From UHGV virus genome UHGV-0382128: 64,000 nt of DNA; one strand, written 5' to 3'. Shown here in pieces: positions 18,042 to 54,040 of this stretch (positions are counted from its first letter, which is position 1; every line of letters begins with the position of its first letter). This DNA is from a virus. Below the pieces are notes generated by a model, which was given only the letters and a program-made list of their open reading frames with translations, did no database searches and had not been told where the DNA came from. Position numbers and translations under genes: made by a program.

Positions 18042-18079
18042 GACAGACTGCCTGCGGGCAGTTGTGTGTCCGTAGGTAA

Positions 18080-18118: not shown

Positions 18119-18135
18119 AAGTAGGAGTCTTTACG

Positions 18136-23322: not shown

Positions 23323-23362
23323 CGCCACGAGACAAGGACGTCTCGGATTAAGGAGAGTGGCC

Positions 23363-25956: not shown

Positions 25957-26014
25957 TTTTACAGAAAGTGAATTATAATGTGTCCTAGGGGGCACTAAAC
26001 CAGTAGGTATTAAA

Positions 26015-26413: not shown

Positions 26414-26416
26414 GAA

Positions 26417-27083: not shown

Positions 27084-27095
27084 TTGGAGTAATCA

Positions 27096-27983: not shown

Positions 27984-27989
27984 AAATAG

Positions 27990-28928
27990 ATGGACTCACC
28001 TGCAATGACAACCGACGTAGAGCCAAGGTTATCGAATCGTTTATACAATAAACCCACCGTATTGTCCGTAGTTGCTACATCCAAATGTAATCTGGACTGT
28101 AGCTTCTGCGGCGGAGCCTATTACATGCATCGTGAAGATTCTCCGCGAGAGTTTCAACGTGAACGAATTTTGAAAGCGTTGGCGTCTAACCCAACCATTA
28201 CTGAAATTCAGTGGACTGGCGGTGAACCGCTACTGGCAACTCGAAAGATTGAGGCGTTTGTCGACGAATTAAAAACGATCCGTCCTGAACTCAAACACCA
28301 GATGTTCACGAACGGTTTAAAAATGCGTAAATCGCATCTACCGTTGTTAAAACAATTCGATGGTATATATGTTAGCATCGATGGGTTTAATCTTTCTGAA
28401 CGGCCTTTTAAGCGCTTTATTGATGATAATTGTCATGAAGCGTTAGAAGTAATTTACAGCTTGAATAATGTTAACACCTGGGCTGTTGTTACGAGGGAGA
28501 ATTTATCCAATAAAAGATGGCATGAAGATATCATTCAATTACATACTGCTATCTATCATTACGGTTTTCGTTCCATGTCCTTATTACTAGATAAAAACAT
28601 GCCAAAACCGTTATCTCCCGATCACGTTATGAACTTTATTTACGGGTATTTTAGAATTCAGGAGAATATAGAAAGATTAAACGTTCTAAATTCTAGAGAC
28701 TGCGGTTTTATTGTAAACAGATTCTTCGATCATGCTTGTAATGTCTGTAGCGAAAGTCTCAGGATAGACGCGGACGGGGAAGAAAACCAACTTAAAAATG
28801 TACCAATAACTACAAAAGCAGGGTGTAACCAACTAGCCTCCTCAATAGGTGTAGAAGCTTACGAGTACATTCGTCGTGTAGTGATGGCAGAGCGTAATAG
28901 AGGGGCGGAAAATGAGTCAAGAAAATAG
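27990..28928 (+). CDS. radical SAM enzyme, paralog 2
   Basis: TSKCNLDCSFCGG; three blocks of 100 percent nucleotide identity with rSAM paralog 1 (54, 38 and 84 nt). Confidence 0.75.
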   Translation: MDSPAMTTDVEPRLSNRLYNKPTVLSVVATSKCNLDCSFCGGAYYMHREDSPREFQRERILKALASNPTITEIQWTGGEPLLATRKIEAFVDELKTIRPELKHQMFTNGLKMRKSHLPLLKQFDGIYVSIDGFNLSERPFKRFIDDNCHEALEVIYSLNNVNTWAVVTRENLSNKRWHEDIIQLHTAIYHYGFRSMSLLLDKNMPKPLSPDHVMNFIYGYFRIQENIERLNVLNSRDCGFIVNRFFDHACNVCSESLRIDADGEENQLKNVPITTKAGCNQLASSIGVEAYEYIRRVVMAERNRGAENESRK

Positions 28929-30234
28929 TTATCCTAAACAACTGACTTATCAAATTGTTACAAATTTATCGTGTAACTTGGACTGTGAGTATTGTTACGA
29001 ACGTAAGTATCCCCGTAATAACAAAGCGGCGGATATTGTTGATTTTCTACACGCTTGTTTTGAACGAGATAAAGATCTGACAAACATCGAGGTCGTTATC
29101 GATATCATCGGTGGTGAGCCGTTTATGCAGCCTAAACTATTAAAGGCGGCATTTGAAACCGCAGAAGAGTTATGCGAAAAACATAATCGGCCGTTTATGT
29201 TTAGCATCTCTACTAACGGAACGTTGTTAGATAGACCTTTGAATAGAGAAATTATTGAACGTTGGAAAGACAGGCTTTCTATCGGCGTGTCTATTGATGG
29301 ATTGCCCGAATCGCACGATAAGTACCGGATTTTTACAACAACTCGTGAAGGATCTTACGAGGCCGCTGTGCGGGGCTATAACTACTTAAAAGAAGTCGGT
29401 ATTGCAGAACTTGGTGTAAAAGCGACCTTTACGTTGGAAACGTTACCGTTCTATGCTGCTGGAATGAAATCATTAATTGATATTACTGGCGGCGGAACTA
29501 TTTCTGGCAACGTAACCTTCGAAGACATTATGCCACGGAGCATGGCTACTTCAATCGCATTGCAGATGATGGACGTGGTAGATTATTGGGTTGAGAAGGG
29601 CTTACACACCAACCCACGTAACACTTTGTCGCACATCATTCCAGACGGGTTAGATTTTGATACTATCTGGGAACCAAACTGGCGTGATCAGTTATTGTAT
29701 AACGATACTGTACGTTTGAATCCAGAACGTTTACGCCCGTTCTGCGGTACGTTAACACACATGACATGCTTAGGATTTGATCGTAAGATCTTCGGTTGTA
29801 ACCGTTTCATGTCAACCGTAACATCACGTTCTGCCGTATTTGAATTAGTTGGGCGGGAATTTGTTAGCTTAGATGACGGGAAATTGCTGGAAGAGATTCA
29901 GACGCAATACACCAACTATCCTGAAACCTGTTTAGGTTGTCCAATGAAGCACGCTTGTGGTAGTTGTGCGGCTGCATCTTACGAGAATGGAGAAGGGACG
30001 CTAGAAGATCGCAAAGCTTATCACGCTGAACGCCGTCAATGTGGCTGGACAACTGCAAAGTTGATGGTTGCGGAATATTGGAAACAGAAAATGGGCACGA
30101 CGTCAGTGAAAGATTTTCATGACAATAGCATGTGTTATTGCCCTCGTTGCGTACGTGAACGTACCCAGAAAGAAAAACAATTGAGAGAAACCAAAGATGA
30201 AGCCAATTCTGATCCACAATATTACGAAGCGTAA
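28912..30234 (+). CDS. radical SAM enzyme with SPASM-like C-terminal Cys-rich domain (anSME-like architecture)
   Basis: N-terminal SCNLDCEYC (Cx3Cx2C); C-terminal CLGCPMKHACGSCAAASYENGEG and further Cys; start overlaps the stop of rSAM 2 by 17 nt. Confidence 0.75.
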   Translation: MSQENSYPKQLTYQIVTNLSCNLDCEYCYERKYPRNNKAADIVDFLHACFERDKDLTNIEVVIDIIGGEPFMQPKLLKAAFETAEELCEKHNRPFMFSISTNGTLLDRPLNREIIERWKDRLSIGVSIDGLPESHDKYRIFTTTREGSYEAAVRGYNYLKEVGIAELGVKATFTLETLPFYAAGMKSLIDITGGGTISGNVTFEDIMPRSMATSIALQMMDVVDYWVEKGLHTNPRNTLSHIIPDGLDFDTIWEPNWRDQLLYNDTVRLNPERLRPFCGTLTHMTCLGFDRKIFGCNRFMSTVTSRSAVFELVGREFVSLDDGKLLEEIQTQYTNYPETCLGCPMKHACGSCAAASYENGEGTLEDRKAYHAERRQCGWTTAKLMVAEYWKQKMGTTSVKDFHDNSMCYCPRCVRERTQKEKQLRETKDEANSDPQYYEA

Positions 30235-32072: not shown

Positions 32073-32082
32073 CCCCCCCCCC
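32073..32082 (+). repeat. C10 homopolymer (G10 on the coding minus strand), intergenic
   Basis: Counted directly; lies between the stop of 32090..32620 and the RBS of 31491..32021. Confidence 0.9.
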
Positions 32083-42391: not shown

Positions 42392-42401
42392 GGGGGGGGG
42401 G
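42392..42401 (+). repeat. G10 homopolymer (C10 on the coding minus strand), intergenic
   Basis: Counted directly; between the stop of 42416..43258 and the RBS of 41850..42365. Confidence 0.9.
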
Positions 42402-43269: not shown

Positions 43270-43713
43270 TTAAATCATACCTGGGAATTCGAAATCGATT
43301 TTATCTAAAAGTTTGTAGTCGTCTTTTAGTTGAAGCATTAGTGTATTCTTAAACAGTTCAAGTGAACCGATAAAGTAAGCCGTATAGCAGCTACCACGAA
43401 CAGAAGAGGAAAGACCCAAGTCTCTTAAACACTGTTTCAAGATTTCATGTTCTTCAGCGGTACCGAAAAGTTGGAAATTGATAACGGTAATATGTTTATT
43501 AATGATTGCCGATAACCATTCTTTAATTCTTCTCGTGGTTATACGTTCTTTGAAATCACTAGCTTCTGGCAACCAGGTAATGTGAACAAACGGTGCATCG
43601 TAATCCACGAGAACTTTCTGCTGCCAACGTACTTGCATCAAACCACGAATACGGTTTGCTAACGTTTCAGAATCACAAAGCAACATAATGCCATTAGTAG
43701 TATTTGGTTTCAT
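43270..43713 (-). CDS. hypothetical protein
   Basis: ORF 147 aa. Confidence 0.45.
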   Translation of the reverse strand: MKPNTTNGIMLLCDSETLANRIRGLMQVRWQQKVLVDYDAPFVHITWLPEASDFKERITTRRIKEWLSAIINKHITVINFQLFGTAEEHEILKQCLRDLGLSSSVRGSCYTAYFIGSLELFKNTLMLQLKDDYKLLDKIDFEFPGMI

Positions 43714-44561
43714 AATTGCCCTTCCTTCTTAATGTAATCTTCAACCAACTTATCAAACACGATTTTTATCTTCTCGCGTTCTTCTTCACCCAATTCACCA
43801 GAACAGGTCAGCCCATTTATCTTCCCGTACCGTAATTCCAACACATATTTCAACCGATGACGTAAGGCTTGTTCAAAATGTGTCGGGATATAGATCGGTT
43901 CGAAGTTGTGCAATAAAATAAAATCGTCTTCGGTGTGTTTAGGGGGTTCGAATTTTACTCTATCTAAGATAGTAAGCCAGCGTTGTCTGTCGACTAGCCG
44001 ATCGTCCCAATAAACAGGTTTTGTTTTAGAGGGGGTAAGTGTATTGTAGTTACTGGAATCGGAGATACGGAAATTTGCTGTGACGTAAGTCTTCGTGAGT
44101 AACGAGAGAAGACAGATCGTTCCTTCTTCAGAGTAGCTTAAACCCTCCTCGAGTACGTCTTTAGCTTTCTTGAAGTAGTCTTCAATATAGTCTTCAGCAA
44201 TTGGTTGAATCTCTACTTCTATAGCGCTAATTTGAGGTCCGTCTATCCGTAAAGGAAATTTTAGCTCAGCAATATACTGCCTATCCGATGTATAGGCGCG
44301 TGTAACAATAGGGTAAGTAACAGGCTTAGCCAAATGACGATATTCATCATCTCTAATGACTGAGTAACGTCCAAACCCACCTTTATTCGATTTTGAAAAA
44401 GCGTAAAGGTCTTTTAGATACTCTAGATACTGGCCATCTGTCATTTCATCGGTATTAAATTCACGAATATAAAGTCGTTCAACAAATCCCTTTGTTTGTT
44501 CGTAGTAATAACTGGGATCCCTATTTGCTAGAATGCGCGGGAGATAATACGGGTGTGACAT
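43710..44561 (-). CDS. hypothetical protein
   Basis: ORF 283 aa. Confidence 0.5.
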   Translation of the reverse strand: MSHPYYLPRILANRDPSYYYEQTKGFVERLYIREFNTDEMTDGQYLEYLKDLYAFSKSNKGGFGRYSVIRDDEYRHLAKPVTYPIVTRAYTSDRQYIAELKFPLRIDGPQISAIEVEIQPIAEDYIEDYFKKAKDVLEEGLSYSEEGTICLLSLLTKTYVTANFRISDSSNYNTLTPSKTKPVYWDDRLVDRQRWLTILDRVKFEPPKHTEDDFILLHNFEPIYIPTHFEQALRHRLKYVLELRYGKINGLTCSGELGEEEREKIKIVFDKLVEDYIKKEGQL

Positions 44562-44636: not shown

Positions 44637-44683
44637 GAAAAAATATAAAAACCGTAGGATGGACTTAGTCCATCCTACGGTTT
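44637..44683 (-). terminator. rho-independent terminator
   Basis: AAACCGTAGGATGGAC-TAAG-TCCATCCTACGGTTT hairpin then TTATATTTTTT on the minus strand, after the tailspike gene. Confidence 0.7.
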
Positions 44684-44686
44684 AAA

Positions 44687-46807
44687 TTAAATAACTACCC
44701 AGCTTTTACCATCGGAACCAATCTGCATTAGCGTAATACTTTCATTGGTATCAATGGGTTTGGCAAGACCTTCTGTCCCACTCTTTGGAGTGATGAGAAC
44801 GTTTGAATTTTCCGGTTTAACGGTGATCTTACCAGCCTTATTTGCCACGATCTGAATATTTCTGCCCACGCTATATTCTAGATCAGGAATAGTAAGTTGG
44901 CCGCCACGGTTGGTGGGTGGGAAATACACATAAGACGACACATCTTCCTCAGATAACACTATGCTACCAGAATCACGATTGACCGAGATCTCAAACTTAG
45001 AAATATCGATATCATAGGCAGTAACTTTCGTAATATCCGTCAGAACCAATTCGTTCAAATCGGTCTTAGCTGGACTGTTCGCCAGATCAAATGGAGTACC
45101 ATTCGTACCGTCCAGCACAGGTGTGACTGTGGTTTTATTGGCACCAGGATAAATGATTTCAAGCGTATGCCAGTTATTATCGTACGCACCAAAAGTTCCT
45201 AATTTCGCATTCTGCTTTTTATGATGCATCAGATTAAGATTCTTAGCGTCGGTCTGTAAGAAAAAAGACATTAGGTACGGGTTTGTATCAGCCACACTAG
45301 CGTCAGCAAGTGTAGTACCAGAAGGTAGGTCGGACGCGGAGATACGCCAATAAAGCCCTAAGCCGAAACGATTTTCTGCTAAATCACCTTTTAGTCTAAA
45401 AGTAACGGTCAGTCGTCCACCGTAACGTATCATGTCCGCAGCAGATGTCATTGACTTAGTTACATTCCAAGGTTTCATCGTTACAGCCTTTCTTAATTCG
45501 ACGAAATGCCCGTTTCCATCCTCAGAATCTTGCACGGTTACGTTACAATCAACGATATTGTTCCAACCCTGCCCTTTCAGGGAACCATCTCCACGACGTC
45601 CGTTATAACCCACAGACTCTACTAATGGGGTATAGCTTCTTACCACATTCATATTGTCTTTGAGCTCTTTAGTGTCGTTCTTCGTCAGGAGCATTGCACC
45701 ATTCGCTGTTCTTGATAATATCTCAGCAGCTATTCTCTCTGAGATAATACCGCGTCGTGCCCAAGAACTGAAATGGCTATTCCTTGTTTCAGACGTCCAG
45801 TTTTTATTACTACGGGTGGCAGCACCGTAGTAGGCAGCACCAGCGATATCAGGATCGTCAGTGGGATCATTAGTCGGTACACGTTGGCCATTATCGTCGT
45901 ACATGAATGGAACAAAAAAGATATTTTTTTGTTCATTGTTACGATAATTACCGTATATGGTTTCATATTGAACAGGATATTTTTCCTTCCAATAGTAGGT
46001 AGTGTCCCCGCAGATCCATGGTACTTCGGCGGTGTCGTACTCGGGCATCTGAGAGAGATGGTCAGAGAGATCAGTTCGGAAACGCTCTACCATTGCCATA
46101 AATAACGCTGGTTGTTGTGCGTAACCTACTTTAGTCAGATCATACTCCCCCTGCATCCACACTACAGCCAAGAGTTTATTTTTAGGATTAACGTCCAGAG
46201 CTTTTTTGGTCCGGCTAACTAAATCTTTATAAAGAGGTTTTTCCACCCCCCATACCGATGACGTCGCAGAGGCTCCTGTGGCTTCATCGAAGGTACCTTC
46301 TGCACCACCCGTGAAAGCAGAACCGCCGCGTGCGCAGGGTACTAGTAAGATACCAGCGTTGCTAGGAATATACGGGAGAAGACGCTTCGCGATGTGTAGA
46401 CCTTGACCCACACATCCGTATTCACCTTTGTCCAAATTGGCTTTGGGGTGCGAGAATACGGACATATCTTGCACGTCGTGCAGACAGTGATCCGCTGGAA
46501 TGACGTCGTTATACTTACAATCAGCCCCGTTAGGCGTTACCTTCGCACGGCGCGCCATCTGTTTAATTCGCGGATCGGGAGCGTCCAACGTCGCCGGTAG
46601 AGGCAACCCTTCACCATAACTCATCGCATTAGATTGCCCGGCTATAGGAATCACGAAGTAATACTCCGGCTCCGTCGTGCCCTGAAGTTTTGCAATATCA
46701 ATTTTATATTCTTTTTCTTCCTTAGAAAGAAGAACTAACGCACCTTTGAGATCGCCAGAGAAATTGTCGAGTTCATGGATACGTTTCTTTCCAATTGGCT
46801 GACTCAT
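44687..46807 (-). CDS. tailspike/fibre protein with SGNH (GDSL-type) esterase-like domain
   Basis: GQSNA motif at about residue 56; N-terminal KKRIHELDNFSGDLKGALVLLSKEEKEYK shared with the 1479-aa fibre (KKIRLHDLHPYTGDIGEGVLLFSKDEKDYK), suggesting a common attachment domain. Confidence 0.6.
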   Translation of the reverse strand: MSQPIGKKRIHELDNFSGDLKGALVLLSKEEKEYKIDIAKLQGTTEPEYYFVIPIAGQSNAMSYGEGLPLPATLDAPDPRIKQMARRAKVTPNGADCKYNDVIPADHCLHDVQDMSVFSHPKANLDKGEYGCVGQGLHIAKRLLPYIPSNAGILLVPCARGGSAFTGGAEGTFDEATGASATSSVWGVEKPLYKDLVSRTKKALDVNPKNKLLAVVWMQGEYDLTKVGYAQQPALFMAMVERFRTDLSDHLSQMPEYDTAEVPWICGDTTYYWKEKYPVQYETIYGNYRNNEQKNIFFVPFMYDDNGQRVPTNDPTDDPDIAGAAYYGAATRSNKNWTSETRNSHFSSWARRGIISERIAAEILSRTANGAMLLTKNDTKELKDNMNVVRSYTPLVESVGYNGRRGDGSLKGQGWNNIVDCNVTVQDSEDGNGHFVELRKAVTMKPWNVTKSMTSAADMIRYGGRLTVTFRLKGDLAENRFGLGLYWRISASDLPSGTTLADASVADTNPYLMSFFLQTDAKNLNLMHHKKQNAKLGTFGAYDNNWHTLEIIYPGANKTTVTPVLDGTNGTPFDLANSPAKTDLNELVLTDITKVTAYDIDISKFEISVNRDSGSIVLSEEDVSSYVYFPPTNRGGQLTIPDLEYSVGRNIQIVANKAGKITVKPENSNVLITPKSGTEGLAKPIDTNESITLMQIGSDGKSWVVI

Positions 46808-46810
46808 CTA

Positions 46811-47323
46811 CTACTCTCCAAAAGTTAAGATTTTATTGTCAAACGTCAACACGACAGAATCATCACCGATGCCACACGGTGTTTCATCTGGGCCGAAAAC
46901 CACCACGGAGAACTGTCCTTTATAAGCGATGGAATTCGGAGCGATGCTAAGCGTTACCGCGTCTTTACCTACCGTGAACGACTGGTCGGTTAAATCGTCG
47001 GTTTGTAAGTTAGCACCACAAACGGCATTGACGGATTCGATAAGATCGTGTGCATTAAACCCTTCACCTCTTACTTTTACCAGAATAGGTTGTTGGTTTA
47101 ACCACCGCTCTGCGGTTAAACGGTTGTAGTAGATTTGCAACGTTCTGTTTCCAGGACGTTTAATCTTTACAATGGCAGTGGAGTCACGATCCATTTCATC
47201 ACTGGTTTTTACGTCACTGACTTCAACCTCGTTCTCTTGCAAGTCAAGTTGGAGGTCATGGTTAACCAGTGAAATAACCATGTTAAGTGAAGTTAGTGAT
47301 AAATCTGGTGTGAATTTTTCCAC
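46811..47323 (-). CDS. small beta-rich protein, paralog family member (GTG start)
   Basis: Pattern LSLTSLNMVISLVNHD ... IYYNRL; paralog 53418..53978 sits in the equivalent position upstream of the other fibre. Confidence 0.5.
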   Translation of the reverse strand: MEKFTPDLSLTSLNMVISLVNHDLQLDLQENEVEVSDVKTSDEMDRDSTAIVKIKRPGNRTLQIYYNRLTAERWLNQQPILVKVRGEGFNAHDLIESVNAVCGANLQTDDLTDQSFTVGKDAVTLSIAPNSIAYKGQFSVVVFGPDETPCGIGDDSVVLTFDNKILTFGE

Positions 47324-47377
47324 GTATGTTTACCTCCTACGGTTGGGGGTCATAAAATATTGACTAAAAAACATTCA

Positions 47378-47387
47378 CCCCCCCCCC
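47378..47387 (+). repeat. C10 homopolymer (G10 on the coding minus strand), intergenic
   Basis: Counted directly; follows a 12-bp AT-rich stem-loop (47389-47420) after the stop of 47422..47865. Confidence 0.9.
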
Positions 47388-47421
47388 ACGATTATTTTCA
47401 ACCGCTTTCAGTTGAAAATAA

Positions 47422-47865
47422 TTAGCTAATTCTCAAATCACGCAGTGCGCCTGTCGATTTCATCACGTTTTGGAACGCGCCACTGATGTTATTAGTCCAG
47501 TAATAATGCTGTCCGTTAATAACCTGCTGATAGGCCAGCGCGCAGGTGTTACCACCTAAATTTACGGTAATGTTAGAGGCTCTGCCTCCTTGTAAGTAAA
47601 CCGCTAAAGTAGGCTTTGCGTTGGCAACTATCGTCGTTAACTGTAACTCAATACCTACTAAAGTTCCCACCCCGCAGTTACCCGCGTTTTGAATGGTTCC
47701 CTGATTTTTCTGGTTTAACGGCCAGCTTGGTCCTACCGCGCCCCATTTCTTACCTAAAGAATCGCTATATGCAGCGGTTGCAATTTTACAGCCCATAGAT
47801 CGTCCCACCATTTGACTCATCATAAAAGGTCTACCCAATCCTAATTTACTACCAGCAGCGCTCAT
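47422..47865 (-). CDS. receptor-binding-like protein, paralog of 48184..48729; true start probably upstream at 47930 but frame broken by a G10 tract
   Basis: Track ORF starts at an internal ATG; an upstream ATG (47930) with AGGAG RBS is followed by 10 G then TAA. With 8 or 11 G the frame reads MGGGVTGSWVGSSAKNETGEQW-MSAAGSKL..., matching the paralog N-terminus MGVASGWVGSSAKAVTGQEW-MSVAGNKL. Confidence 0.55.
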   Translation of the reverse strand: MSAAGSKLGLGRPFMMSQMVGRSMGCKIATAAYSDSLGKKWGAVGPSWPLNQKNQGTIQNAGNCGVGTLVGIELQLTTIVANAKPTLAVYLQGGRASNITVNLGGNTCALAYQQVINGQHYYWTNNISGAFQNVMKSTGALRDLRIS

Positions 47866-47918
47866 CCATTGTTCGCCCGTTTCGTTCTTGGCCGAAGAAC
47901 CGACCCACGAACCGGTTA

Positions 47919-47928
47919 CCCCCCCCCC
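47919..47928 (+). repeat. C10 homopolymer (G10 on the coding strand) directly after the start codon of the receptor-binding-like paralog
   Basis: Counted directly; length determines whether the N-terminal 22 codons are in frame. Confidence 0.9.
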
Positions 47929-47942
47929 ATCGCGATCTCCTG

Positions 47943-48173
47943 TTAAGATTTTCTACATGTTATTGAATCGAAAGCACCACGCCCAACCCAACGCCAATTA
48001 TAATGATGATCAGCTTTATAAAGTGTGTATCTGCCCTGCTTTTTTACGTCGAAAATATTGATCGTAGTCTCTTCATTACCCAGCTTAGCTGTGCCGTAAC
48101 ATACAGGTTCGGGTAGTTGTTGACATCCACTTACTGTAAGCAATGCGAAACCCAGTAAAACTTTTCTTAACAT
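47943..48173 (-). CDS. small lipoprotein (76 aa)
   Basis: MLRKVLLGFALLTVSGC lipobox-type signal; located between the two receptor-binding-like paralogs. Confidence 0.5.
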   Translation of the reverse strand: MLRKVLLGFALLTVSGCQQLPEPVCYGTAKLGNEETTINIFDVKKQGRYTLYKADHHYNWRWVGRGAFDSITCRKS

Positions 48174-48183
48174 CTTTCTGTCC

Positions 48184-48729
48184 TTAGACTACACTTATTG
48201 AAATTGTTGCGCCGTTCTGATTAAATAACCAGTTGGTTGCCGTCTTAGCCTCATAGCGCCGGACGCCGTTACTGTAAGAGTACGGTAGAAAAGTAATCTT
48301 CGTTCCGTTAAACGAAAGCGTAATATTCTGATTTGGTCCATTGGTTAGGGCCATGTAGATAATACCAGTATTTTGTACTTGGCTAAGATGTGTGACGCTA
48401 CAACCCAAGATCGAACCTGACACCGAACCGGCCGCATTTTGTGTTTGCACACGATTCGATACTGTAGAACCAGCACCCGTTGTTGTAGAGTTGTTCGAAT
48501 ACCCCCCATACGTATTTGTAATAGGAACCCACTGCGTGTTCGTAGCCTGCACCAAAACAACATAGGTTGATCGGCCTACAACGAGTTTAAGATCCTCTAC
48601 GCTACGCCCGACCATCTGCGACATGTTAAATGGCGTGCTCAGTTTAAGCTTATTACCTGCCACACTCATCCACTCCTGACCGGTTACTGCCTTTGCTGAG
48701 CTTCCAACCCAGCCGGATGCTACCCCCAT
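48184..48729 (-). CDS. receptor-binding-like protein (181 aa), intact paralog
   Basis: N-terminal MGVASGWVGSSAKAVTGQEWMSVAGNKLKLSTPFNMSQMVGRS conserved with 47422..47865; GGAGG RBS; immediately downstream of the 1479-aa fibre gene. Confidence 0.55.
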   Translation of the reverse strand: MGVASGWVGSSAKAVTGQEWMSVAGNKLKLSTPFNMSQMVGRSVEDLKLVVGRSTYVVLVQATNTQWVPITNTYGGYSNNSTTTGAGSTVSNRVQTQNAAGSVSGSILGCSVTHLSQVQNTGIIYMALTNGPNQNITLSFNGTKITFLPYSYSNGVRRYEAKTATNWLFNQNGATISISVV

Positions 48730-48743
48730 AAATCCTCCAAACT

Positions 48744-48771
48744 AAGATAGGGGGATTACTCCCCCTATCTT
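48744..48771 (-). promoter_or_regulatory. intercistronic stem-loop (perfect 12-bp stem) between fibre gene and downstream receptor-binding-like gene
   Basis: AAGATAGGGGGA-GTAA-TCCCCCTATCTT overlapping the fibre stop codon and just upstream of the RBS of 48184..48729. Confidence 0.45.
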
Positions 48772-51700
48772 TAATTCCCCTTGAGTTCTTTAAGCTCTCG
48801 GCGAAGAGACTTCATACCCTCTACTAACAGCGCAATAACGCCATTGTAATTTAGACGTAAACGTTTTTCGCCTGAAATGGCATCGTCGTCCTCGGACACA
48901 AGTTCAGGTAACGCTTCTAAAGCGTCCTGAGCAATTAGACCTACAGAAGTCTGCCAGCCGTCGTCAGGATGCTGAATTTCGTACAAATACCCTGTTAGTA
49001 ACTCTAACCGATCCAAAGCTTTATCCAGCTTCACCAGATTACGTTTGTTACGACGGTCAGAACGAATCTGTACGTCGTTAAACGAACCGTTACCGTTGCC
49101 AGTAACGTTATGTCCAAAGTTTACTTGACCGTTGGAATTATTAAAAGACAACGGACGTAATCCGTTCCAGGAACCCGCTGCGGCTTGTCCGGCATCGGTT
49201 ACTAAGAAATAGGTATTGGCACCATCGTTACGTAAAATAAAACCGTAGGTACCGTAAGCGATTCGAAAATCAGGGTATTTAGTGGCCAATTTACCGTTAA
49301 CGGTTAAATCGCCGCCTATAGTACCGCCCCCCGAAGGTAGTGCACCCACTTCCGCAGCAGTTGGCTTGTTTCTCGTATTGTAAGCACGACGCCAGCCTGG
49401 TGAGTATCCATCGCCGTTAAATACGTAGATAAACTCCGCATTAGTGAGTGCTCCGCCGACGCTCGTCGTTGTGGCGGTCGTTATACGGATCGTGTAGTTG
49501 TTTGTGCTGTTGCCGTTACTAATGACTTCTATAACGGCCCCAGCTAACGGAATGACACCACAACCCGTCTCGCTGTGAGGTATGGACGCACTGGCGGCAT
49601 AAGCCCACGCACAGCGAGCAACCCACGATCTTGTGGTAAATGCGCCGTTATTTTTCAATAACGTCACTAGCTGTGCTGTAGTTATTGCACCGCCATCAGC
49701 GCCAGTTTCTAACCAACCACTAGGTGATGCCGGACAACCTATTTCGGCTGGCCCTAACGATATATTTCTAGTGCCATCAAACGCAATACCATTGATGGTT
49801 CTTGCGGTTTGCAACTTTGTTGCCGTGGCTGCGTTTCCGGTGGTCGACTGATTCCCTGTTTGGTTTACTCCAGGTAAACTGATGTCTTTAGTACCATCAA
49901 AAGCCACGCCACCTATATTTCGCGCAGTCTGGAGCTTAGTCGCTGTCGCCGCATTCCCCGTAGTCGATTGGTTACCGGTTTGGTTTACGCCAGGAAGATT
50001 AACGTCTTTTGTCCCATCGAACACCACACCGCCGATCTTACGTGCGGTTTGTAACTTAGTAGCGGTCGCTGCATTACCTGTCGTATTCTGGTTGCCTTGC
50101 TGGTTAACGCCCGGTAAATTGATGTCACCTGTACCGTCAAAGCTAACGCCTCCGATCCTGCGAGCGGTTTTCAGTTTCGTCGCGGTAGCGGCGTTGCCGG
50201 TAGTATCCTGATTACCTGTGGCATTTACACCAGGAATGCTATCACGGGCAGTATAAACTTGTGCCCAATCTGACCACGGCGCATCAGCAGTATCACGTCG
50301 ACTACGAATATAAACGGGTGCGTGCGCACCGCTCGTCCCCGACCATCCGATTAACAGTTCTCCTTCGCCTAGCGCAGCAGAACCGCCCAAATGCAGTAAG
50401 TTACCATAAGCGGTTGGATAACCGTTATTGTAAACTTCGTACATCTGAATACCGGGTGTACCTTTGTTTGATCCAGTCAGTGCAGTAACACGTCCACGTC
50501 CTACCAACGTGTTGATATTGATGTCTCTAGACCCATCAAATTTCACACCGTTGATGTTTCGAGCCGTTTGTAATTTGGTTGCGGTTCCCGCGTTCCCAGA
50601 GGTGTTTTGATTACCCTGTTGGTTTACACCAGGGAGGCTAATGTCTCCGCTACCGTCGAAACTTACACCGCCGATTAAACGGGCTGTTTTCAGTTTCGTT
50701 GCCGTAGCAGCATTGCCTGTTAACTCACCTGATAACCCTTTTGCAAAGGTCTGTTTTTCTGCCCACGTATGCGCTGCATTCAATACGGGCATCTGGCGGC
50801 TAGTAATAGTACGTTTACCCTTTTCACCAGCGACGCGAACAGCAAAGAAGCGATAGTTAGCAGTAGACACTGTACCACGCCAGACCAACATACTCCGGCC
50901 AGTACCGGTGTCCTCCGACGCCCCTACAAGAATAGTGACCAAGTTACCGTCGATAACACCCCAATCCATTCCCGCAGGAATGTTTTTCATGGTATTCAAT
51001 GGTGTACTTATCATCTGGCCAGGAACGAAGTCGAAGGTTTGCCAGTCTAACGGATCGACCTTAGCAGCAACCCCACCGATCCCTAAAGTCAACGGGAGTG
51101 AATAGGATGTGAAAATTTCTCGCCATTCGCTCCAGGCGTTTCCTGTACGAATTCGTTGGAACTTGCGACCTTTCGAAGTTGCGCCTGTACCGTATGTGGT
51201 ATAATTTTGTTCAACACCTGAACCGTCTAAGCGTAAGGTAACTTCGCAAACACCTAGCAAGGTTGCGCCAGCAGAGTCTGTTAACGGACTGTCTGTAGCC
51301 TCACCGGTAACACTAAAGCGACCCGGTTTAGTTAAGTCGTTAAAGCTACCCTTATAGTAGGCACCGTCTACCTGATACCCAACCTGAATCCAATCTTCCC
51401 ACTGCGGATTAGACGAATCCCAAGTCGCAGTCAAACCACGGACATACATCGTACCACGTCGTGTGGTGTATCGTTGCAACCGTCCGTAAAGACCACCTTC
51501 CATGACTTCTAATACGCCTTGCGCATTACCGCCCTCTTCAGGATAATGTCTGTCGAACACCGCTAACGAACTGGACGAGTTACGCCAGTTACCCATGTGC
51601 TCAGCGCCGCCTAAGGAGTTCAGATCGATCGATGTAGATAACGGACGTACACCGGTAGTTACCATTCTCCACGGTGACCACGGGCCATTAGTTCCGTTCC

Positions 51701-53210
51701 ACGCACCTGACAACATACGGTTGTACACGTTACCATTACGACAGGTAAAACGTTGCGCACCGCTATAGTTACCCGCTTTATACACTTCTAGATAACCTAC
51801 CGCACCGTCTTCCGGGAAGTGTTTTGCTATTGATGCGTTTGTTGATGTCGACTTGGACCATGTTCCTGTGTAATTGGCATCTGGAGCAAATGTGTTAATA
51901 TCAGCATCTGCGGGCATTTCACCACGGAAACGCAGATAGGTATCAGGAGATAGACCAATATTGCGAGCAAAGGTTTCTTTATTGGGGATATCAGCACCGT
52001 TAGAGTTTTTCTGTAACGCAGCGTTCGCTTTATCTACAGTGGCTTTTAATCCCAAGAAATTGATGATATCCGCAGTTGTCCCTTTTGCTAACAAGGTTCT
52101 GGCGGTTTCTGTAAAGTCAGTTAACCCGACTTTATTAGTGCCAGTGAAATAAGGGAGCTTGTTTGCTGCGGTTGTGACTGCGGCAATAGCAGTAAGTAGT
52201 GGACTGATAGGTTGCTTCTGTGCAAGTTTCTCAGTAATCGTTGTTGCGAAGTTAGGGTCATTACCTAACGCCGTAGCTAATTCCGCTAAGGTATCTAACG
52301 TCTCAGGTGAAGAACCAACCAATTCCGCGATAGCAGCACGCACCCAGGCCGTTGTGGAGATGCTCGTGTCATTCGAGTCCTTTGGGGGCGTTGGTGATGT
52401 CGGGTTACCCGTAAAATTCGGCGAATGTTTATCGGCTTTTAACTGTAATTCGTCGTTCAGCTGTTTAACCGTGGACGGTGTGGCAGCCTCCGTCACGGAT
52501 TCGCTAGTCAGGGTATTGTTAAGTTTAACGATACCTTTACCGGTCGTACTAGCGTCAACTAAACCCTGTGCAGCGATTTTCTCCGCACGCAGAGCGGCTG
52601 ACTCCGAGCGTGTAGCTGCGCCTTCTGAGCTTTCTTTATCTTTCGTAACCTGCGCAGCAACCTTCTCCACCGCGCCCTTACTGGCCTCAATTGAAGCCGC
52701 AGTATTTGCGATACTGGTAGCGGTCTGTTGAACCTGTCCGGCCCGTTGCGTAACCGTTTCTGCTTTCTTAGTTACATCAGCCGCTACAGCTGTCACAGAT
52801 TGTTCGCTTGCGGCGACAGCTTGAGCCTTCTCATTTACTGATTGTGAAACAGTATCTACGGCAGTTTTTGCTGCTAAAACTTCAGCGTGTTTTTTGTTAA
52901 CCTCCGCAGTTTTAGTGGCGACGGTTCCCGCTTGCTCATTAACTGTGGAAGCTAAAGTGGTGGTCTGTTGCTTCGCTGTTTCTGCTAAATCTTTAGCTTT
53001 CGTAGCTTCTGTTGCGGACTGTTGTGATTTGGCCGCAGCCGTTTGTGCATCAGCAACCGCACTTCTGACGGTGTCAATGTCCGCAACGATCTCGCGGACG
53101 GGTAACTTATAATCTTTTTCGTCTTTCGAAAAAAGTAAAACGCCTTCACCGATATCCCCGGTGTACGGATGTAAGTCGTGTAAACGTATTTTCTTTACCG
53201 CTTTAGCCAT
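48771..53210 (-). CDS. long tail fibre protein (1479 aa) with tandem about 39-aa repeats and C-terminal intramolecular chaperone (peptidase S74-like) domain
   Basis: C-terminus SDRRNKRNLVKLDKALDRLELLTGYLYEIQHPDDGWQTSVGLIAQDALEALPELVS fits the S74 auto-cleaving chaperone signature; six repeats of GNQ.TTGNAATATKLQTAR.IGGV.FDGT.DI.LPGVNQ; fibre-repeat-like TTGKGIVKLNNTLTSESVTEAATPSTV. Confidence 0.8.
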   Translation of the reverse strand: MAKAVKKIRLHDLHPYTGDIGEGVLLFSKDEKDYKLPVREIVADIDTVRSAVADAQTAAAKSQQSATEATKAKDLAETAKQQTTTLASTVNEQAGTVATKTAEVNKKHAEVLAAKTAVDTVSQSVNEKAQAVAASEQSVTAVAADVTKKAETVTQRAGQVQQTATSIANTAASIEASKGAVEKVAAQVTKDKESSEGAATRSESAALRAEKIAAQGLVDASTTGKGIVKLNNTLTSESVTEAATPSTVKQLNDELQLKADKHSPNFTGNPTSPTPPKDSNDTSISTTAWVRAAIAELVGSSPETLDTLAELATALGNDPNFATTITEKLAQKQPISPLLTAIAAVTTAANKLPYFTGTNKVGLTDFTETARTLLAKGTTADIINFLGLKATVDKANAALQKNSNGADIPNKETFARNIGLSPDTYLRFRGEMPADADINTFAPDANYTGTWSKSTSTNASIAKHFPEDGAVGYLEVYKAGNYSGAQRFTCRNGNVYNRMLSGAWNGTNGPWSPWRMVTTGVRPLSTSIDLNSLGGAEHMGNWRNSSSSLAVFDRHYPEEGGNAQGVLEVMEGGLYGRLQRYTTRRGTMYVRGLTATWDSSNPQWEDWIQVGYQVDGAYYKGSFNDLTKPGRFSVTGEATDSPLTDSAGATLLGVCEVTLRLDGSGVEQNYTTYGTGATSKGRKFQRIRTGNAWSEWREIFTSYSLPLTLGIGGVAAKVDPLDWQTFDFVPGQMISTPLNTMKNIPAGMDWGVIDGNLVTILVGASEDTGTGRSMLVWRGTVSTANYRFFAVRVAGEKGKRTITSRQMPVLNAAHTWAEKQTFAKGLSGELTGNAATATKLKTARLIGGVSFDGSGDISLPGVNQQGNQNTSGNAGTATKLQTARNINGVKFDGSRDININTLVGRGRVTALTGSNKGTPGIQMYEVYNNGYPTAYGNLLHLGGSAALGEGELLIGWSGTSGAHAPVYIRSRRDTADAPWSDWAQVYTARDSIPGVNATGNQDTTGNAATATKLKTARRIGGVSFDGTGDINLPGVNQQGNQNTTGNAATATKLQTARKIGGVVFDGTKDVNLPGVNQTGNQSTTGNAATATKLQTARNIGGVAFDGTKDISLPGVNQTGNQSTTGNAATATKLQTARTINGIAFDGTRNISLGPAEIGCPASPSGWLETGADGGAITTAQLVTLLKNNGAFTTRSWVARCAWAYAASASIPHSETGCGVIPLAGAVIEVISNGNSTNNYTIRITTATTTSVGGALTNAEFIYVFNGDGYSPGWRRAYNTRNKPTAAEVGALPSGGGTIGGDLTVNGKLATKYPDFRIAYGTYGFILRNDGANTYFLVTDAGQAAAGSWNGLRPLSFNNSNGQVNFGHNVTGNGNGSFNDVQIRSDRRNKRNLVKLDKALDRLELLTGYLYEIQHPDDGWQTSVGLIAQDALEALPELVSEDDDAISGEKRLRLNYNGVIALLVEGMKSLRRELKELKGN
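49770..50720 (-). repeat. tandem coding repeats (about 117 nt units) inside the 1479-aa fibre gene
   Basis: Repeating nucleotide units readable on the plus strand (e.g. ...gccgtggctgcgtttccggtggtcgactgattccctgtttggtttac...) corresponding to the protein repeats; two runs separated by a non-repeat segment at about 50230-50500. Confidence 0.7.
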
Positions 53211-53417
53211 GATATTTAATTCTCTATCGGGAGCTAAAAGATCTGGGGAGGTACTTTACCCCCCGCCCAATATTTTTATAAGCGGATTATTATACTGGTT
53301 TTAATCCATCATCTTCTAACGTGAAAGTGATGCCCAACTCCGCGTTCTCATGATCTGGGTTTACTAAGTCTTGATAAACGTTTGCTTTGGCCTCCATTAC
53401 CAGAAAAACCGTCAAGT

Positions 53418-53978
53418 TCATGTAGCCGGGTTTTCTTCAGCGGAGTCTCCATCTGGAACCTCAAATGTAAGAACAGCATCGTCACCAATACAGAAGATTG
53501 CATCTTCTTCGTTTGCTAATGCCCGTTCAGTTGTATCAAATAACGTCACCATAAACGCATTCATCCACGCAGGAGAATCGTCAGCAACGTTGACAGCAAT
53601 AGGATCGTTACCTAAAGTGATATCTGAAGCACGTAAATCCTCGGGTTGTAAGTTCGTTCCGCAGAATTCATTTACAACACCTAAAATGTCGCGTACGTTG
53701 TCTTCGGTACCATCTAACGAAATCAAAATAGGTTCGGACGCTAACACTTTGTCCGCATCCAAACGGTCGTAATAAACAACTACAGAAGCACCATCAGGTT
53801 TCCTGATTTTTGTAATCTCTGTCAGTGTGTTACGACGCGAAGTGGTCGGGGATGGGTTTGCCGTAGTGTTGCTAATACGGATTTCGCTTAGAGACAACCG
53901 TGAACCGTTATCGTGGTTGATTAAAGCGACCACTAGTTCGGCTGAGGACAAACTTAAATCAGGTACGTAAGCAGTCAC
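53418..53978 (-). CDS. small beta-rich protein, paralog family member (GTG start at 53978 with GGGAGG RBS)
   Basis: MTAYVPDLSLSSAELVVALINHDNG parallels MEKFTPDLSLTSLNMVISLVNHDLQ of 46811..47323. Confidence 0.5.
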   Translation of the reverse strand: MTAYVPDLSLSSAELVVALINHDNGSRLSLSEIRISNTTANPSPTTSRRNTLTEITKIRKPDGASVVVYYDRLDADKVLASEPILISLDGTEDNVRDILGVVNEFCGTNLQPEDLRASDITLGNDPIAVNVADDSPAWMNAFMVTLFDTTERALANEEDAIFCIGDDAVLTFEVPDGDSAEENPAT

Positions 53979-53992
53979 TAAAACCTCCCAGA

Positions 53993-54040
53993 TCAAAAAA
54001 AATAAAAACACCTACCGCCCCATAGAATCGGGCGGTAGGC
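53993..54040 (-). terminator. rho-independent terminator
   Basis: CCTACCGCCC-loop-GGGCGGTAGG 10-bp stem followed by T-rich run on the minus strand. Confidence 0.65.

What the first reader, a model, noticed from the sequence alone, without database searches (positions are those of the whole stretch)
44687..53210. SGNH-esterase tailspike and 1479-aa fibre share an N-terminal anchor-like region; the fibre ends in an S74 chaperone domain
44687..46807 has the GQSNA block typical of SGNH/GDSL esterases (consistent with a polysaccharide deacetylating tailspike) and an N-terminus (KKRIHELDNF...LLSKEEKEYK) similar to that of 48771..53210 (KKIRLHDLHP...LFSKDEKDYK). The latter has six tandem about 39-aa repeats and a C-terminal auto-cleaving chaperone signature. 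Together with the plus-strand fibres this phage would present at least six distinct fibre or spike proteins.
Basis: partly seen in the sequence, partly recalled or inferred. Interest (0 to 1): 0.5.

Follow-up and report, generated by a model that had tools for sequence, protein, structure and literature searches.

The report
Jumbo-phage tail anchor carrying esterase and fibre
A giant enterobacterial phage uses one short N-terminal docking peptide on two very different proteins, a long mosaic tail fibre and a sialic-acid O-acetyl esterase otherwise known from Shiga-toxin prophages, which probably puts both on its tail.

Summary
The window comes from an SPN3US-like (Seoulvirus-related) jumbo phage. 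Coordinates 53978-44649 (minus strand) are its variable receptor-binding cassette, bounded by two terminators.

- **Esterase (44687-46807).** It is a NanS/NanS-p-type sialate O-acetylesterase: E 1e-120 to NanS 3PT5, with all four SASA blocks present. A jelly-roll lectin domain (6YP6-like) follows the catalytic domain. The capsid-binding DUF1737 of NanS-p is replaced by a 41-aa anchor.
- **Fibre (48771-53210).** It carries the same kind of anchor, then six 40-aa repeats arranged 2+4, then an S74 chaperone domain (Ser1384/Lys1389). It is followed by gp38-type adhesins, as in phages S16 and T2.
- **Anchor.** It is the N-terminus of SPN3US gp123, a virion protein not assigned to the head. In 1.84 billion proteins it occurs only at residues 1-43, on at least six different cargos. 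It lies downstream of a DUF7941 gene in each of the eight loci I inspected.

NanS enzymes naturally lack the Asp of the triad. "Six fibres" is not established.

Tail attachment and the substrate are inferred, not shown. I rate this a new variant of a known kind, of moderate interest.

The parts
54011..54039 (-). Hairpin (CCTACCGCCC / GGGCGGTAGG, 9-nt loop) followed by a T-run. It is the likely terminator of the upstream DUF488 gene and marks the 5' border of the cassette.
   Evidence: Read directly from the sequence. An SD GGGAGG and a GTG start follow.
53418..53978 (-). DUF7941 leader gene #1, orthologue of SPN3US gp122. The probable start is GTG 53978; the ORF list gives 54011.
   Evidence: Pfam PF25613 E 9.9e-19. 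46% identity to the SPN3US protein. Start inferred from homologue alignment and the SD.
53351..53452 (-). Fossil anchor: a 34-codon stump (METPLKKTRLHELDGFSGN...) of a deleted gp123-like gene. It overlaps the 3' end of DUF7941 #1.
   Evidence: BLAST E 1e-4 to the esterase anchor. Sequence. Alignment. The relative L009 still has the intact gp123/gp124 pair at this position.
48771..53210 (-). Mosaic long tail fibre, 1479 aa.
   Evidence: PHROG tail-fibre families E down to 3e-287 and Pfam Phage_fiber_2, Gp34_trimer and Peptidase_S74. PDB matches to Mu S, T4 gp34 and S16 gp37.
53088..53210 (-). Fibre anchor, residues 1-41 (MAKAVKKIRLHDLHPYTGDIGEGVLLFSKDEKDYKLPVREI).
50478..50717 (-). Fibre repeat block 1: two 40-aa GNAxTATKL units, residues 832-911.
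49719..50198 (-). Fibre repeat block 2: four 40-aa units, residues 1005-1164.
48774..49061 (-). C-terminal S74 intramolecular chaperone, residues 1384-1479 (10.9 kDa). The predicted cleavage is before Ser1384, with Lys1389 as the dyad partner.
   Evidence: Pfam PF13884 E 5.1e-10. Motif. Alignment with S16 gp37. Masses.
48184..48729 (-). gp38-type tail-fibre adhesin #1, 181 aa.
   Evidence: Pfam Gp38_N E 2.4e-20 and phrog_1121 E 6.9e-53. S16 gp38 chain 6F45_D residues 1-49, E 9e-6. 69% identity to adhesins of Stx2 phage 86 and POCJ13.
47943..48173 (-). Cor-like superinfection-exclusion lipoprotein, 76 aa, with lipobox LTVSGC.
   Evidence: phrog_1119 E 1.3e-25. Sequence. Absent from relative L003.
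47422..47930 (-). gp38-type adhesin #2. It is interrupted at codon 5 by a 10-G tract (47919-47928). As sequenced, only a 147-aa ORF from 47865 is open.
   Evidence: With 8 or 11 G a 168/169-aa protein with an intact Gp38_N domain is restored. The gene is intact in relatives.
46811..47323 (-). DUF7941 leader gene #2, 170 aa. Its stop, a second TAG and the esterase ATG are contiguous and in frame.
   Evidence: Pfam PF25613 E 1.3e-13. 34% identity to copy #1. Junction.
44687..46807 (-). Anchor-tethered NanS-p-type sialate O-acetylesterase, 706 aa, 77.9 kDa.
46685..46807 (-). Esterase anchor, residues 1-41 (MSQPIGKKRIHELDNFSGDLKGALVLLSKEEKEYKIDIAKL).
   Evidence: pLDDT is below 50 as a monomer.
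45716..46675 (-). SASA catalytic domain, residues 45-364. Blocks: GQSNA 57-61 (Ser59), RGGSAF 160-165, MQGEYD 218-223, R342-x-SHFS (His345).
   Evidence: 3PT5 E 1.2e-120. Block positions, compared with PMC10792757. These residues are invariant in 42 homologues. Foldseek TM 0.86.
44978..45610 (-). Lectin-like jelly-roll domain (DUF6645), residues 400-610.
   Evidence: 6YP6 E 2.5e-39. Foldseek TM 0.90, rmsd 1.8.
44690..44941 (-). Extra beta-rich C-terminal domain, residues 623-706. It is shared with Salmonella prophage versions and absent from Stx-phage NanS-p. Function unknown.
   Evidence: Coverage pattern. Sequences. Model. No family match.
44649..44683 (-). Strong intrinsic terminator (16-bp stem plus T-run) that closes the cassette.

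Best explanation
The region is the variable host-recognition cassette of an SPN3US-like jumbo myophage.

A clade-specific N-terminal peptide of about 41 residues (consensus MAxPVKKKRLHELDxFxGD....VxLxSKDEKEYKxP) acts as a portable docking module. This is inferred. It fastens different cargo proteins to the tail or baseplate. Its genes lie downstream of a small acidic DUF7941 gene, which is either the docking partner or an assembly factor.

Two cargos use the anchor here.

1. A 156-kDa mosaic long fibre. Its C-terminal S74 chaperone domain should drive trimer folding and then cut itself off before Ser1384. That leaves a tip to which a gp38-type adhesin binds through its N-terminal domain, as in phages S16 and T2.

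2. A NanS-p-type enzyme made of a Ser59/His345 SASA esterase plus a jelly-roll lectin. It most likely removes O-acetyl groups from sialic acids, either on sialylated bacterial surface glycans or on gut mucus. It would act as an accessory receptor-modifying or receptor-destroying activity carried on the virion.

Shown here: domain identities, catalytic motifs, anchor homology and its N-terminal position, gene order and its variation among relatives.

Inferred: physical attachment to the tail, S74 cleavage, adhesin capping, esterase substrate.
For: Phage identity and synteny.
- The giant virion protein is 53% identical to SPN3US.
- Window 62-36 kb is collinear with SPN3US 96.8-115 kb.

Anchor.
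- Pairwise E 1e-6.
- 44-57% identity to the N-terminus of the SPN3US and Asesino 156-aa proteins.
- Found in 24 phage records. In the four I inspected (SPN3US, Asesino, SPAsTU, Lh1B) it lies directly after the DUF7941 gene.
- The profile search finds it almost only at residues 1-43, on proteins of 133-1494 aa with unrelated C-termini.
- In the metagenomic contig L010, DUF7941 precedes two anchor proteins.
- SPN3US gp123 (16.5 kDa, the anchor protein) and gp124 (113.7 kDa) are in purified virions and are not assigned to the head (PMC5694885 Supplementary Table 1; masses).
- An unused anchor decays, as the fossil at 53452-53351 shows, whereas both used anchors keep the consensus.

Esterase.
- 3PT5 E 1e-120 and 6YP6 E 2.5e-39.
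- All four SASA blocks are present and invariant in 42 homologues.
- Fold match TM 0.86 and 0.90.
- The lectin domain also resembles the V. cholerae sialidase sialic-acid-binding domain, TM 0.76.

Precedent for virion display of this module.
- phi24B gp84 (a NanS-p) is a capsid decoration protein held by DUF1737 (bioRxiv 10.64898/2026.04.10.717836).
- P0006 carries the same module behind a lambdoid tail-fibre N-terminus, PF08400 E 8e-50.

Fibre.
- S74 domain and SDRRNK motif.
- Both partners of the S16 gp37-gp38 complex are matched: 6F45_A and 6F45_D.

Conservation. The same cassette is present in related metagenomic phages.
Against: - No experiment or structure places the anchor on the tail in this phage. 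The inference rests on SPN3US gp123 proteomics and gene context.
- DUF7941 (SPN3US gp122, 18.8 kDa) is not in the SPN3US virion list. It may therefore be a chaperone rather than a structural socket.
- DUF7941 and anchor genes are not in a 1:1 ratio in relatives L009 and L010.
- The anchor is predicted disordered as a monomer. The DUF7941 model was unusable, with pLDDT 46.6.
- The classical view of NanS-p is a soluble enzyme that benefits the lysogen.
- The substrate is unknown. Most Salmonella and E. coli surfaces lack sialic acid.
- The esterase is a presence/absence gene among close relatives, so it is not essential.
Confidence: 0.7

Rival explanations
1. The esterase is not a virion part. 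It is a soluble enzyme released at lysis, as in the classical NanS-p role of freeing acetyl and sialic acid from mucus. Its N-terminal 41 residues are only the 5' scar of the recombination that dropped the module into a gp123-like gene.
For: - NanS-p enzymes are described as growth-promoting esterases of EHEC (PMC8319020; PMC10462455).
- The esterase is dispensable among relatives.
- The anchor is disordered in the monomer model.
- A 5' stump of gp123 does persist elsewhere in the locus.
Against: - The stump that is demonstrably unused has decayed after about 19 codons and is diverging. The esterase anchor instead keeps the full 41-aa consensus through KEYKI.
- A near-identical anchor subtype (QPIGKKRIHEL) carries a completely different 710-aa cargo in another phage.
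- NanS-p has now been found in virions in phi24B.
- A virulent jumbo phage gains nothing from feeding a lysogen.
Confidence: 0.15
2. The enzyme is virion-borne, but its substrate is an O-acetylated bacterial polysaccharide that contains no sialic acid (O-antigen, capsule or ECA). It would then work like the deacetylating tail proteins of phage G7C or of Acinetobacter phages.
For: - SASA-type esterase domains occur in predicted tail fibres and tailspikes of Acinetobacter phages (PMC11058221; PMC11126041).
- Some SASA enzymes act on acetylxylan rather than sialic acid (PMC9487903).
- The C-terminal 84-aa domain and the lectin domain are divergent: 36% identity to 6YP6.
Against: - The catalytic domain is 57% identical to NanS itself.
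- NanS was most active on 9-O-acetyl Neu5Ac.
- The lectin fold resembles a sialic-acid-binding module.
Confidence: 0.25
3. The shared N-terminus is not a baseplate anchor. It is a recognition tag for a DUF7941 assembly chaperone or export/assembly factor, and attachment is made elsewhere in the proteins.
For: - DUF7941 (gp122) is missing from the SPN3US virion proteome while gp123 is present.
- DUF7941 is acidic (pI 4.0-4.5) and the anchor starts with a basic KKxR patch.
- The genes are tightly coupled.
Against: - The esterase has no other candidate attachment region. The catalytic domain begins at residue 45.
- The gp123-type proteins are only about 155 aa.
- PHROG families containing DUF7941 are annotated as virion structural proteins.
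Confidence: 0.2

Closest known systems
NanS-p sialate O-acetylesterases of Stx and other lambdoid prophages (933W NanS-p; phi24B gp84 = vb_24B_21; PDB 6YP6)
   Same: - NanS-like SASA catalytic domain followed by a jelly-roll lectin domain, 50-52% identity over 80% of the protein.
- The module is carried on a virion through a small N-terminal docking domain (phi24B preprint).
   Different: - The N-terminal DUF1737 capsid-binding domain is absent and is replaced by the Seoulvirus gp123-type anchor.
- An extra 84-aa C-terminal domain is present, as in Salmonella prophage versions.
- The host genome is a virulent-type jumbo phage, not a temperate lambdoid phage.
E. coli NanS (YjhS), PDB 3PT5
   Same: 57% identity and the same fold. 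It has the same Ser-His catalytic arrangement, with Gln in the oxyanion hole and the (H)QGE block.
   Different: NanS is a single-domain cellular enzyme with no lectin, no anchor and no C-terminal domain.
SPN3US gp122-gp123-gp124 module (DUF7941, 156-aa anchor protein, 1005-aa tail protein)
   Same: - Same genomic position between the same flanking genes.
- Same DUF7941 leader gene and same anchor peptide.
   Different: - Here gp123 is reduced to a 19-codon stump and gp124 is gone.
- The anchor is instead fused directly to a long fibre and to an esterase, and DUF7941 is duplicated.
S16/T2-type distal long tail fibre (gp37 with C-terminal chaperone, capped by gp38; PDB 6F45)
   Same: - The fibre C-terminus aligns with S16 gp37, including the SDRRxK cleavage motif.
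- The downstream gene has the Gp38_N attachment domain.
   Different: - The fibre is a single 1479-aa chain attached by the jumbo-phage anchor, not the T4-type gp34-gp37 chain.
- The adhesins are short (181 aa) and match gp38 only in residues 1-48.
- Two adhesin genes lie in tandem, with a Cor gene between them.
Esterase tail proteins of other phages (SASA/SGNH tail fibres and tailspikes of Acinetobacter phages; G7C gp63.1, the latter recalled from memory)
   Same: A carbohydrate O-acetyl esterase of the SGNH superfamily placed behind an N-terminal virion-attachment module.
   Different: It belongs to a different SASA subfamily (NanS-type with a lectin), uses a different anchor, and shows no sign of a trimeric spike body.
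Haemagglutinin-esterases of influenza C virus and coronaviruses (analogy only)
   Same: A virion-displayed SGNH-fold sialate O-acetylesterase combined with a lectin domain (PMC9487903).
   Different: No sequence relationship was tested or claimed. The host range and virion architecture are unrelated.

Membership tests
SASA / SGNH-superfamily carbohydrate esterase (PF03629) | Block I GQSN with the nucleophilic Ser and the adjacent oxyanion-hole Gln | tested here: met
   GQSNA at 57-61. It aligns with NanS 17-GQSNA-21. G57, Q58, S59 and N60 are invariant in 42 homologues.
SASA / SGNH-superfamily carbohydrate esterase (PF03629) | Block II Gly and the SASA-specific Block III (H)QGE motif | tested here: met
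   RGGSAF 160-165 and MQGEYD 218-223, compared with NanS 120-RGGSAF-125 and 178-MQGEFD-183. Q219 and G220 are invariant.
SASA / SGNH-superfamily carbohydrate esterase (PF03629) | Block V catalytic His | tested here: met
   R342-N-S-H345-F-S aligns with NanS R-x-SHFS (His301). R342 and H345 are invariant.
SASA / SGNH-superfamily carbohydrate esterase (PF03629) | Block V Asp of the classical Ser-His-Asp triad (DxxH) | tested here: not met
   There is no DxxH; Arg342 occupies the position. NanS also lacks this Asp and uses a main-chain carbonyl (PMC9487903; PMC10792757). This places the protein in the NanS subtype rather than excluding it.
SASA / SGNH-superfamily carbohydrate esterase (PF03629) | Measured esterase activity and substrate | not testable with these tools
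   Needs purified protein.
NanS-p (prophage sialate O-acetylesterase) | NanS-like catalytic domain plus C-terminal lectin-like jelly roll (DUF6645 / 6YP6) | tested here: met
NanS-p (prophage sialate O-acetylesterase) | N-terminal DUF1737 (capsid-binding) domain | tested here: not met
   No PF08410 hit. Residues 1-41 are the gp123-type anchor. Control: P0004's N-terminus does hit DUF1737, E 3.9e-8.
Peptidase S74 intramolecular chaperone (PF13884) | Profile match above the curated threshold at the extreme C-terminus of a fibre | tested here: met
   39.9 bits against a cut-off of 22, residues 1384-1438 of 1479.
Peptidase S74 intramolecular chaperone (PF13884) | Cleavage-site Ser with Lys five residues downstream. 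The Ser-Lys dyad is known from endosialidase chaperone domains; I recall this from established literature. | tested here: met
   S1384-DRRN-K1389. The same motif aligns in S16 gp37.
Peptidase S74 intramolecular chaperone (PF13884) | Autoproteolytic release of the domain | not testable with these tools
   Prediction: a 145.1-kDa mature fibre and a 10.9-kDa fragment.
gp38-type adhesin-capped fibre (S16/T2 type) | gp37-like fibre tip and a downstream protein with the Gp38_N attachment domain | tested here: met
   6F45_A E 7.6e-13. PF21721 E 2.4e-20. 6F45_D residues 1-49 E 9.3e-6.
gp38-type adhesin-capped fibre (S16/T2 type) | S16/T2-like receptor-binding body of gp38 | tested here: not met
   The PDB match stops at residue 48. 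The rest belongs to phrog_1121, a family of short adhesins.
Seoulvirus gp123-type anchor proteins | 41-aa N-terminal motif at residue 1 | tested here: met
Seoulvirus gp123-type anchor proteins | Gene lies downstream of a DUF7941 gene | tested here: met
   The esterase lies 3 nt after DUF7941 #2. The fibre lies 207 nt after DUF7941 #1, with the gp123 stump between them. The same rule holds in SPN3US, Asesino, SPAsTU, Lh1B, L003, L009 and L010.
Seoulvirus gp123-type anchor proteins | Located in the tail of the virion | not testable with these tools
   Known only for SPN3US gp123, from proteomics.
Canonical tailspike (trimeric beta-helix depolymerase) | Parallel beta-helix body | tested here: not met
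   The model is an alpha/beta domain, a jelly roll and a small beta domain. The top fold hits are NanS and the NanS-p lectin.

The most novel reading that the evidence does not exclude
The NanS-p esterase-lectin module may primarily be a virion-display cargo that phages move between docking sites. Three docking modules are seen: DUF1737 on capsid hexons in phi24B, a lambdoid tail-fibre N-terminus in P0006, and the jumbo-phage anchor here.

On this virulent jumbo phage it would act like the haemagglutinin-esterase of influenza C virus and coronaviruses. It would bind O-acetylated sialoglycans and strip their acetyl groups, on gut mucus or on sialylated capsules such as O-acetylated K1. The phage could then move through mucus or capsule, or avoid being trapped there, on its way to the receptor used by the gp38-capped fibre.
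Probability: 0.3. Interest if true: 0.7.

Novelty: new variant of a known kind. Interest (0 to 1): 0.5.

Why it matters
- It defines a short, searchable docking peptide, and its DUF7941 companion gene, for the poorly understood tail periphery of SPN3US-like jumbo phages. This gives a handle for swapping receptor-binding proteins in these phages.
- It adds a third independent way of mounting the NanS-p esterase on a phage particle. This supports the recent proposal that this "virulence-associated" prophage enzyme is really a virion component.
- If the enzyme acts on host sialoglycans, it would be a phage counterpart of viral receptor-destroying esterases. That bears on how phages move in mucus.
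- The cassette also shows, within one lineage, stepwise gain and loss of receptor-binding genes: a stump of gp123, a presence/absence esterase, a swapped fibre tip, and a homopolymer-interrupted second adhesin.

Tried and rejected
- **Nucleotide search of phages.** Megablast of the locus against 50,697 phage records found no close relative, only a 135-nt patch. Identification therefore had to go through proteins.
- **One oversized query** failed, and two calls failed on wrong ORF coordinates.
- **DUF7941.** There is no PDB sequence relative and only 10 homologues. The AlphaFold model has pLDDT 46.6 and was not used for a fold search.
- **Esterase C-terminal domain (623-706).** It shows no similarity to the gp123 C-terminal domain and no PHROG family.
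- **The idea that each DUF7941 copy pairs 1:1 with one anchor protein.** I dropped it after L009 (2 DUF7941 copies; anchors on gp123 and on the fibre; nothing after copy #2) and L010 (1 DUF7941, 2 anchor proteins).
- **Read-through of the in-frame TAG TAG between DUF7941 #2 and the esterase.** No suppressor tRNA, or any tRNA, is found in the window, and SPN3US uses a different junction. I treat the in-frame arrangement as coincidence.
- **Sigma-70 promoter scan.** The count is no better than in shuffled sequence (17 found, 19.2 expected), so no promoters are claimed.
- **ORFs downstream of the esterase (283, 147 and 280 aa).** They have no Pfam, PHROG or significant PDB matches.
- **Rangarajan 2011 (NanS structure paper)** is not held. 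Catalytic residues were taken from two reviews instead.

Full report
**What the window is.** The 1440-aa protein at 9524-13846 is 52-53% identical to a virion protein of Salmonella phage SPN3US and its relatives, all about 240-kb jumbo myophages of the genus Seoulvirus. Window 62-36 kb on the minus strand is gene-for-gene collinear with SPN3US 96.8-115 kb. No phage in the 50,697-record collection is close at the nucleotide level. Nearly identical proteins do occur in metagenomic and contaminated isolate assemblies. These include a 226-kb contig, L003, contigs labelled Salmonella Enteritidis, E. coli and Shigella, and a 221.9-kb circular "plasmid" of a urinary E. coli isolate that is plainly a related jumbo phage, L009. 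The host is therefore an enterobacterium, probably E. coli or Salmonella.

**Checking the observation.** Both ORFs are real.

- The 706-aa protein has GQSNA at residues 57-61 and hits Pfam SASA and DUF6645.
- The two N-termini align over 41 residues without gaps, 14 identical and 30 similar, E 1e-6.
- The fibre has six GNAxTATKL repeats. The period is 40 aa, and the repeats form two blocks of 2 and 4 split by a 93-aa insert.
- Pfam Peptidase_S74 matches residues 1384-1438 above threshold. The motif is S1384-DRRN-K1389.

**The anchor.** The shared N-terminus is more than a local resemblance.

- Each copy is closer (44-57% identity) to the N-terminus of the 156-aa "tail fiber protein" of SPN3US and of Erwinia phage Asesino than the two copies are to each other.
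- A tblastn search with the 45-aa peptide finds it in 24 jumbo-phage records. In the four I inspected (SPN3US, Asesino, SPAsTU, Lh1B) it sits directly after the DUF7941 gene.
- A profile of the two window anchors, run against 1.84 billion representative proteins, returns 19 hits. For 16 of them the match starts at residue 1. These proteins range from 133 to 1494 aa and have unrelated C-termini:
  - the gp123 type (154-156 aa),
  - the long fibre,
  - the esterase,
  - a 710-aa protein with Ig-like repeats,
  - proteins of 188, 205 and 273 aa.
- In the metagenomic contig L010, one DUF7941 gene is followed by two different anchor proteins.
- By exact mass, the SPN3US anchor protein is gp123 (16.5 kDa) and the next gene is gp124 (113.7 kDa). 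Both are in purified SPN3US virions and are not among the proteins assigned to the head (PMC5694885 Supplementary Table 1; the head/tail split comes from the tailless mutant in PMC5105663).

This is the basis for calling the peptide a tail anchor. For the proteins in this window it remains an inference.

DUF7941 (gp122, 18.8 kDa) is not in that virion list. It may be the socket, or it may be an assembly factor. Its AlphaFold model was too poor to help.

**History of the locus.** Directly after DUF7941 #1, in another frame, lies a 34-codon ORF beginning METPLKKTRLHELDGFSGN. The E. coli 98232 phage (L009) still has an intact gp123-like gene (MATALKKTRLHELESYAGT...) and a gp124-like gene at this position, followed by the long fibre. 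The window's stump is therefore what a deletion of gp123 and gp124 left behind. It is drifting further in L003.

L009, in turn, has DUF7941 #2 but no esterase. A short junk ORF and a terminator follow directly, and the next gene (283 aa in the window) is reduced to its two ends. Between the window and L003 the fibre is 80% identical overall, but residues about 1150-1370 are replaced by unrelated sequence while the S74 domain is identical. The first adhesin differs, and only the window has the Cor gene.

The cassette is bounded by a hairpin plus T-run at 54039-54011 and by a 16-bp-stem terminator at 44683-44649.

**The esterase.**

- Residues 45-364 match E. coli NanS (3PT5) with E 1.2e-120.
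- Residues 400-610 match the lectin-like C-terminal domain of phi24B NanS-p (6YP6) with E 2.5e-39.
- The four sequence blocks tabulated for NanS are all present: GQSNA, RGGSAF, MQGEFD and R-x-SHFS (PMC10792757). Their key residues are invariant in 42 homologues.
- NanS lacks the Block V aspartate (PMC9487903).
- The AlphaFold model (mean pLDDT 76.7) superposes on 3PT5 with TM 0.86 and on 6YP6 with TM 0.90. It has no beta-helix. The first 44 residues are disordered in the monomer model.

Homologues fall into three groups:

- three near-identical 706-aa proteins from related jumbo phages;
- many Salmonella prophage proteins that cover residues about 45-706 but have other N-termini;
- Stx-phage NanS-p proteins with DUF1737 that lack the last 84 residues.

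One of these, P0006, has a canonical lambdoid tail-fibre N-terminus (PF08400, E 8e-50) and a coiled coil in front of the same module. A 2026 preprint shows that phi24B NanS-p (gp84) is a capsid decoration protein held by DUF1737. The esterase-lectin module thus rides on interchangeable virion-docking modules, and the window adds the jumbo-phage anchor to that list.

The substrate is not known. NanS-type enzymes act on 7/8/9-O-acetylated sialic acids (PMC8319020). SASA-type tail esterases aimed at bacterial capsules are predicted in Acinetobacter phages.

**The fibre.** It is a mosaic, in this order:

- anchor;
- Ala-rich coiled coil;
- Phage_fiber_2 repeat;
- segments shared with P1 S, Cyrano and T6/PST gp34-37;
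- the 40-aa repeats;
- a Mu S-like segment and a Gp34_trimer segment;
- a C-terminus that aligns with S16 gp37, including the cleavage motif.

The next gene has the Gp38_N attachment domain (E 2.4e-20) and matches S16 gp38 residues 1-49. Its closest relatives (69% identity) are the tail-fibre adhesins of Stx2 phage 86 and Shigella phage POCJ13.

The expected sequence of events is inferred from the S16/T2 and endosialidase systems. The S74 domain would fold the trimer and cut itself off, giving 145.1 + 10.9 kDa. The adhesin would then cap the tip.

**Other points in the cassette.**

- Between the two adhesin genes lies a 76-aa lipoprotein of the Cor superinfection-exclusion family.
- The second adhesin gene starts ATG + G10. 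As sequenced it stops after four codons, while 8 or 11 G restore a full-length protein. Relatives have it intact.
- G/C runs of 9-10 nt occur five times in the window. As overlapping 8-mers they give 14 matches against 0.5 expected.

**Verdict.** The finding is real and mostly well read. It is the accessory receptor-binding cassette of a new SPN3US-like phage. Its most interesting feature is a NanS-p-type esterase transplanted onto the clade's tail anchor. Similar arrangements are known: enzymatic tail proteins, modular N-terminal anchors, S74 chaperones and gp38 caps. I therefore rate it a new variant of a known kind, of moderate interest (0.5). The open experimental question is where the esterase sits on the particle and what it deacetylates.

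Noticed in passing
window 47919-47930 (minus strand): The second gp38-type adhesin gene begins ATG followed by a 10-G run and stops after 4 codons. With 8 or 11 G it encodes a full-length 168/169-aa adhesin. A good SD (AGGAG) precedes the ATG. This is either a homopolymer sequencing error or a phase-variable switch of an alternative adhesin.
   Followed up: partly
window 26611-26619, 32073-32082, 42392-42401, 47378-47387, 47919-47928: Five G/C homopolymer runs of 9-10 nt. As overlapping 8-mers they give 14 matches against 0.5 expected by chance. They are mostly intergenic, and some form hairpins with a C-run.
   Followed up: partly
window 47943-48173 (minus strand): A 76-aa lipoprotein of the Cor superinfection-exclusion family (phrog_1119, E 1.3e-25) lies between the two adhesin genes. 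It is absent from relative L003. It hints that adhesin #1 may target FhuA or another outer-membrane receptor.
   Followed up: partly
window 53351-53452 (minus strand): A fossil 5' stump of a deleted gp123-like gene overlaps the end of DUF7941 #1. The intact gp123/gp124 pair survives in E. coli 98232 plasmid-like phage NZ_CP173450.1.
   Followed up: yes
L009 = NZ_CP173450.1 (E. coli strain 98232, 221,873 bp, circular, annotated as a plasmid): This "plasmid" of a urinary E. coli isolate carries the Seoulvirus-type tail cassette. It appears to be a complete related jumbo phage genome, suggesting a carrier state or contamination.
   Followed up: partly
window 46805-46816: The DUF7941 #2 stop, a second TAG and the esterase ATG are contiguous and in frame (GAG TAG TAG ATG). 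No tRNA gene is present in the window, so read-through is unsupported.
   Followed up: partly
window 48771-49760 compared with L003 7200-8279: The fibre tip (residues about 1150-1370) is replaced by unrelated sequence in a relative that is otherwise 80% identical, while the S74 domain is 100% conserved. This is a recombination hot spot just upstream of the chaperone.
   Followed up: partly
window 47773-47907: A 135-nt stretch at the 5' end of adhesin #2 is 96% identical to 109-kb phage or phage-plasmid records: phage CMS-2020a and plasmids of E. coli O104:H4. This points to recent exchange with E. coli elements.
   Followed up: no
window 43710-44561 (minus strand): A 283-aa ORF with no family match is present whenever the esterase is present (window, L003, L004). 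In the esterase-less relative L009 it is reduced to its first and last codons.
   Followed up: partly
window 25042-30234 (plus strand): Three proteins of 304, 312 and 440 aa with CxxxCxxC-type motifs typical of radical-SAM enzymes form a cluster. I judged this from the sequences alone.
   Followed up: no
window 9524-24562 (plus strand): Four large proteins share a paralogous N-terminal region. They correspond to SPN3US paralogue family C (gp168-170), which are baseplate/fibre candidates. None has a Pfam fibre domain.
   Followed up: partly
window 53978-54011: The mechanical ORF call for DUF7941 #1 starts 11 codons too early. Homologues, an SD (GGGAGG) and an upstream terminator point to GTG 53978 as the start.
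   Followed up: yes
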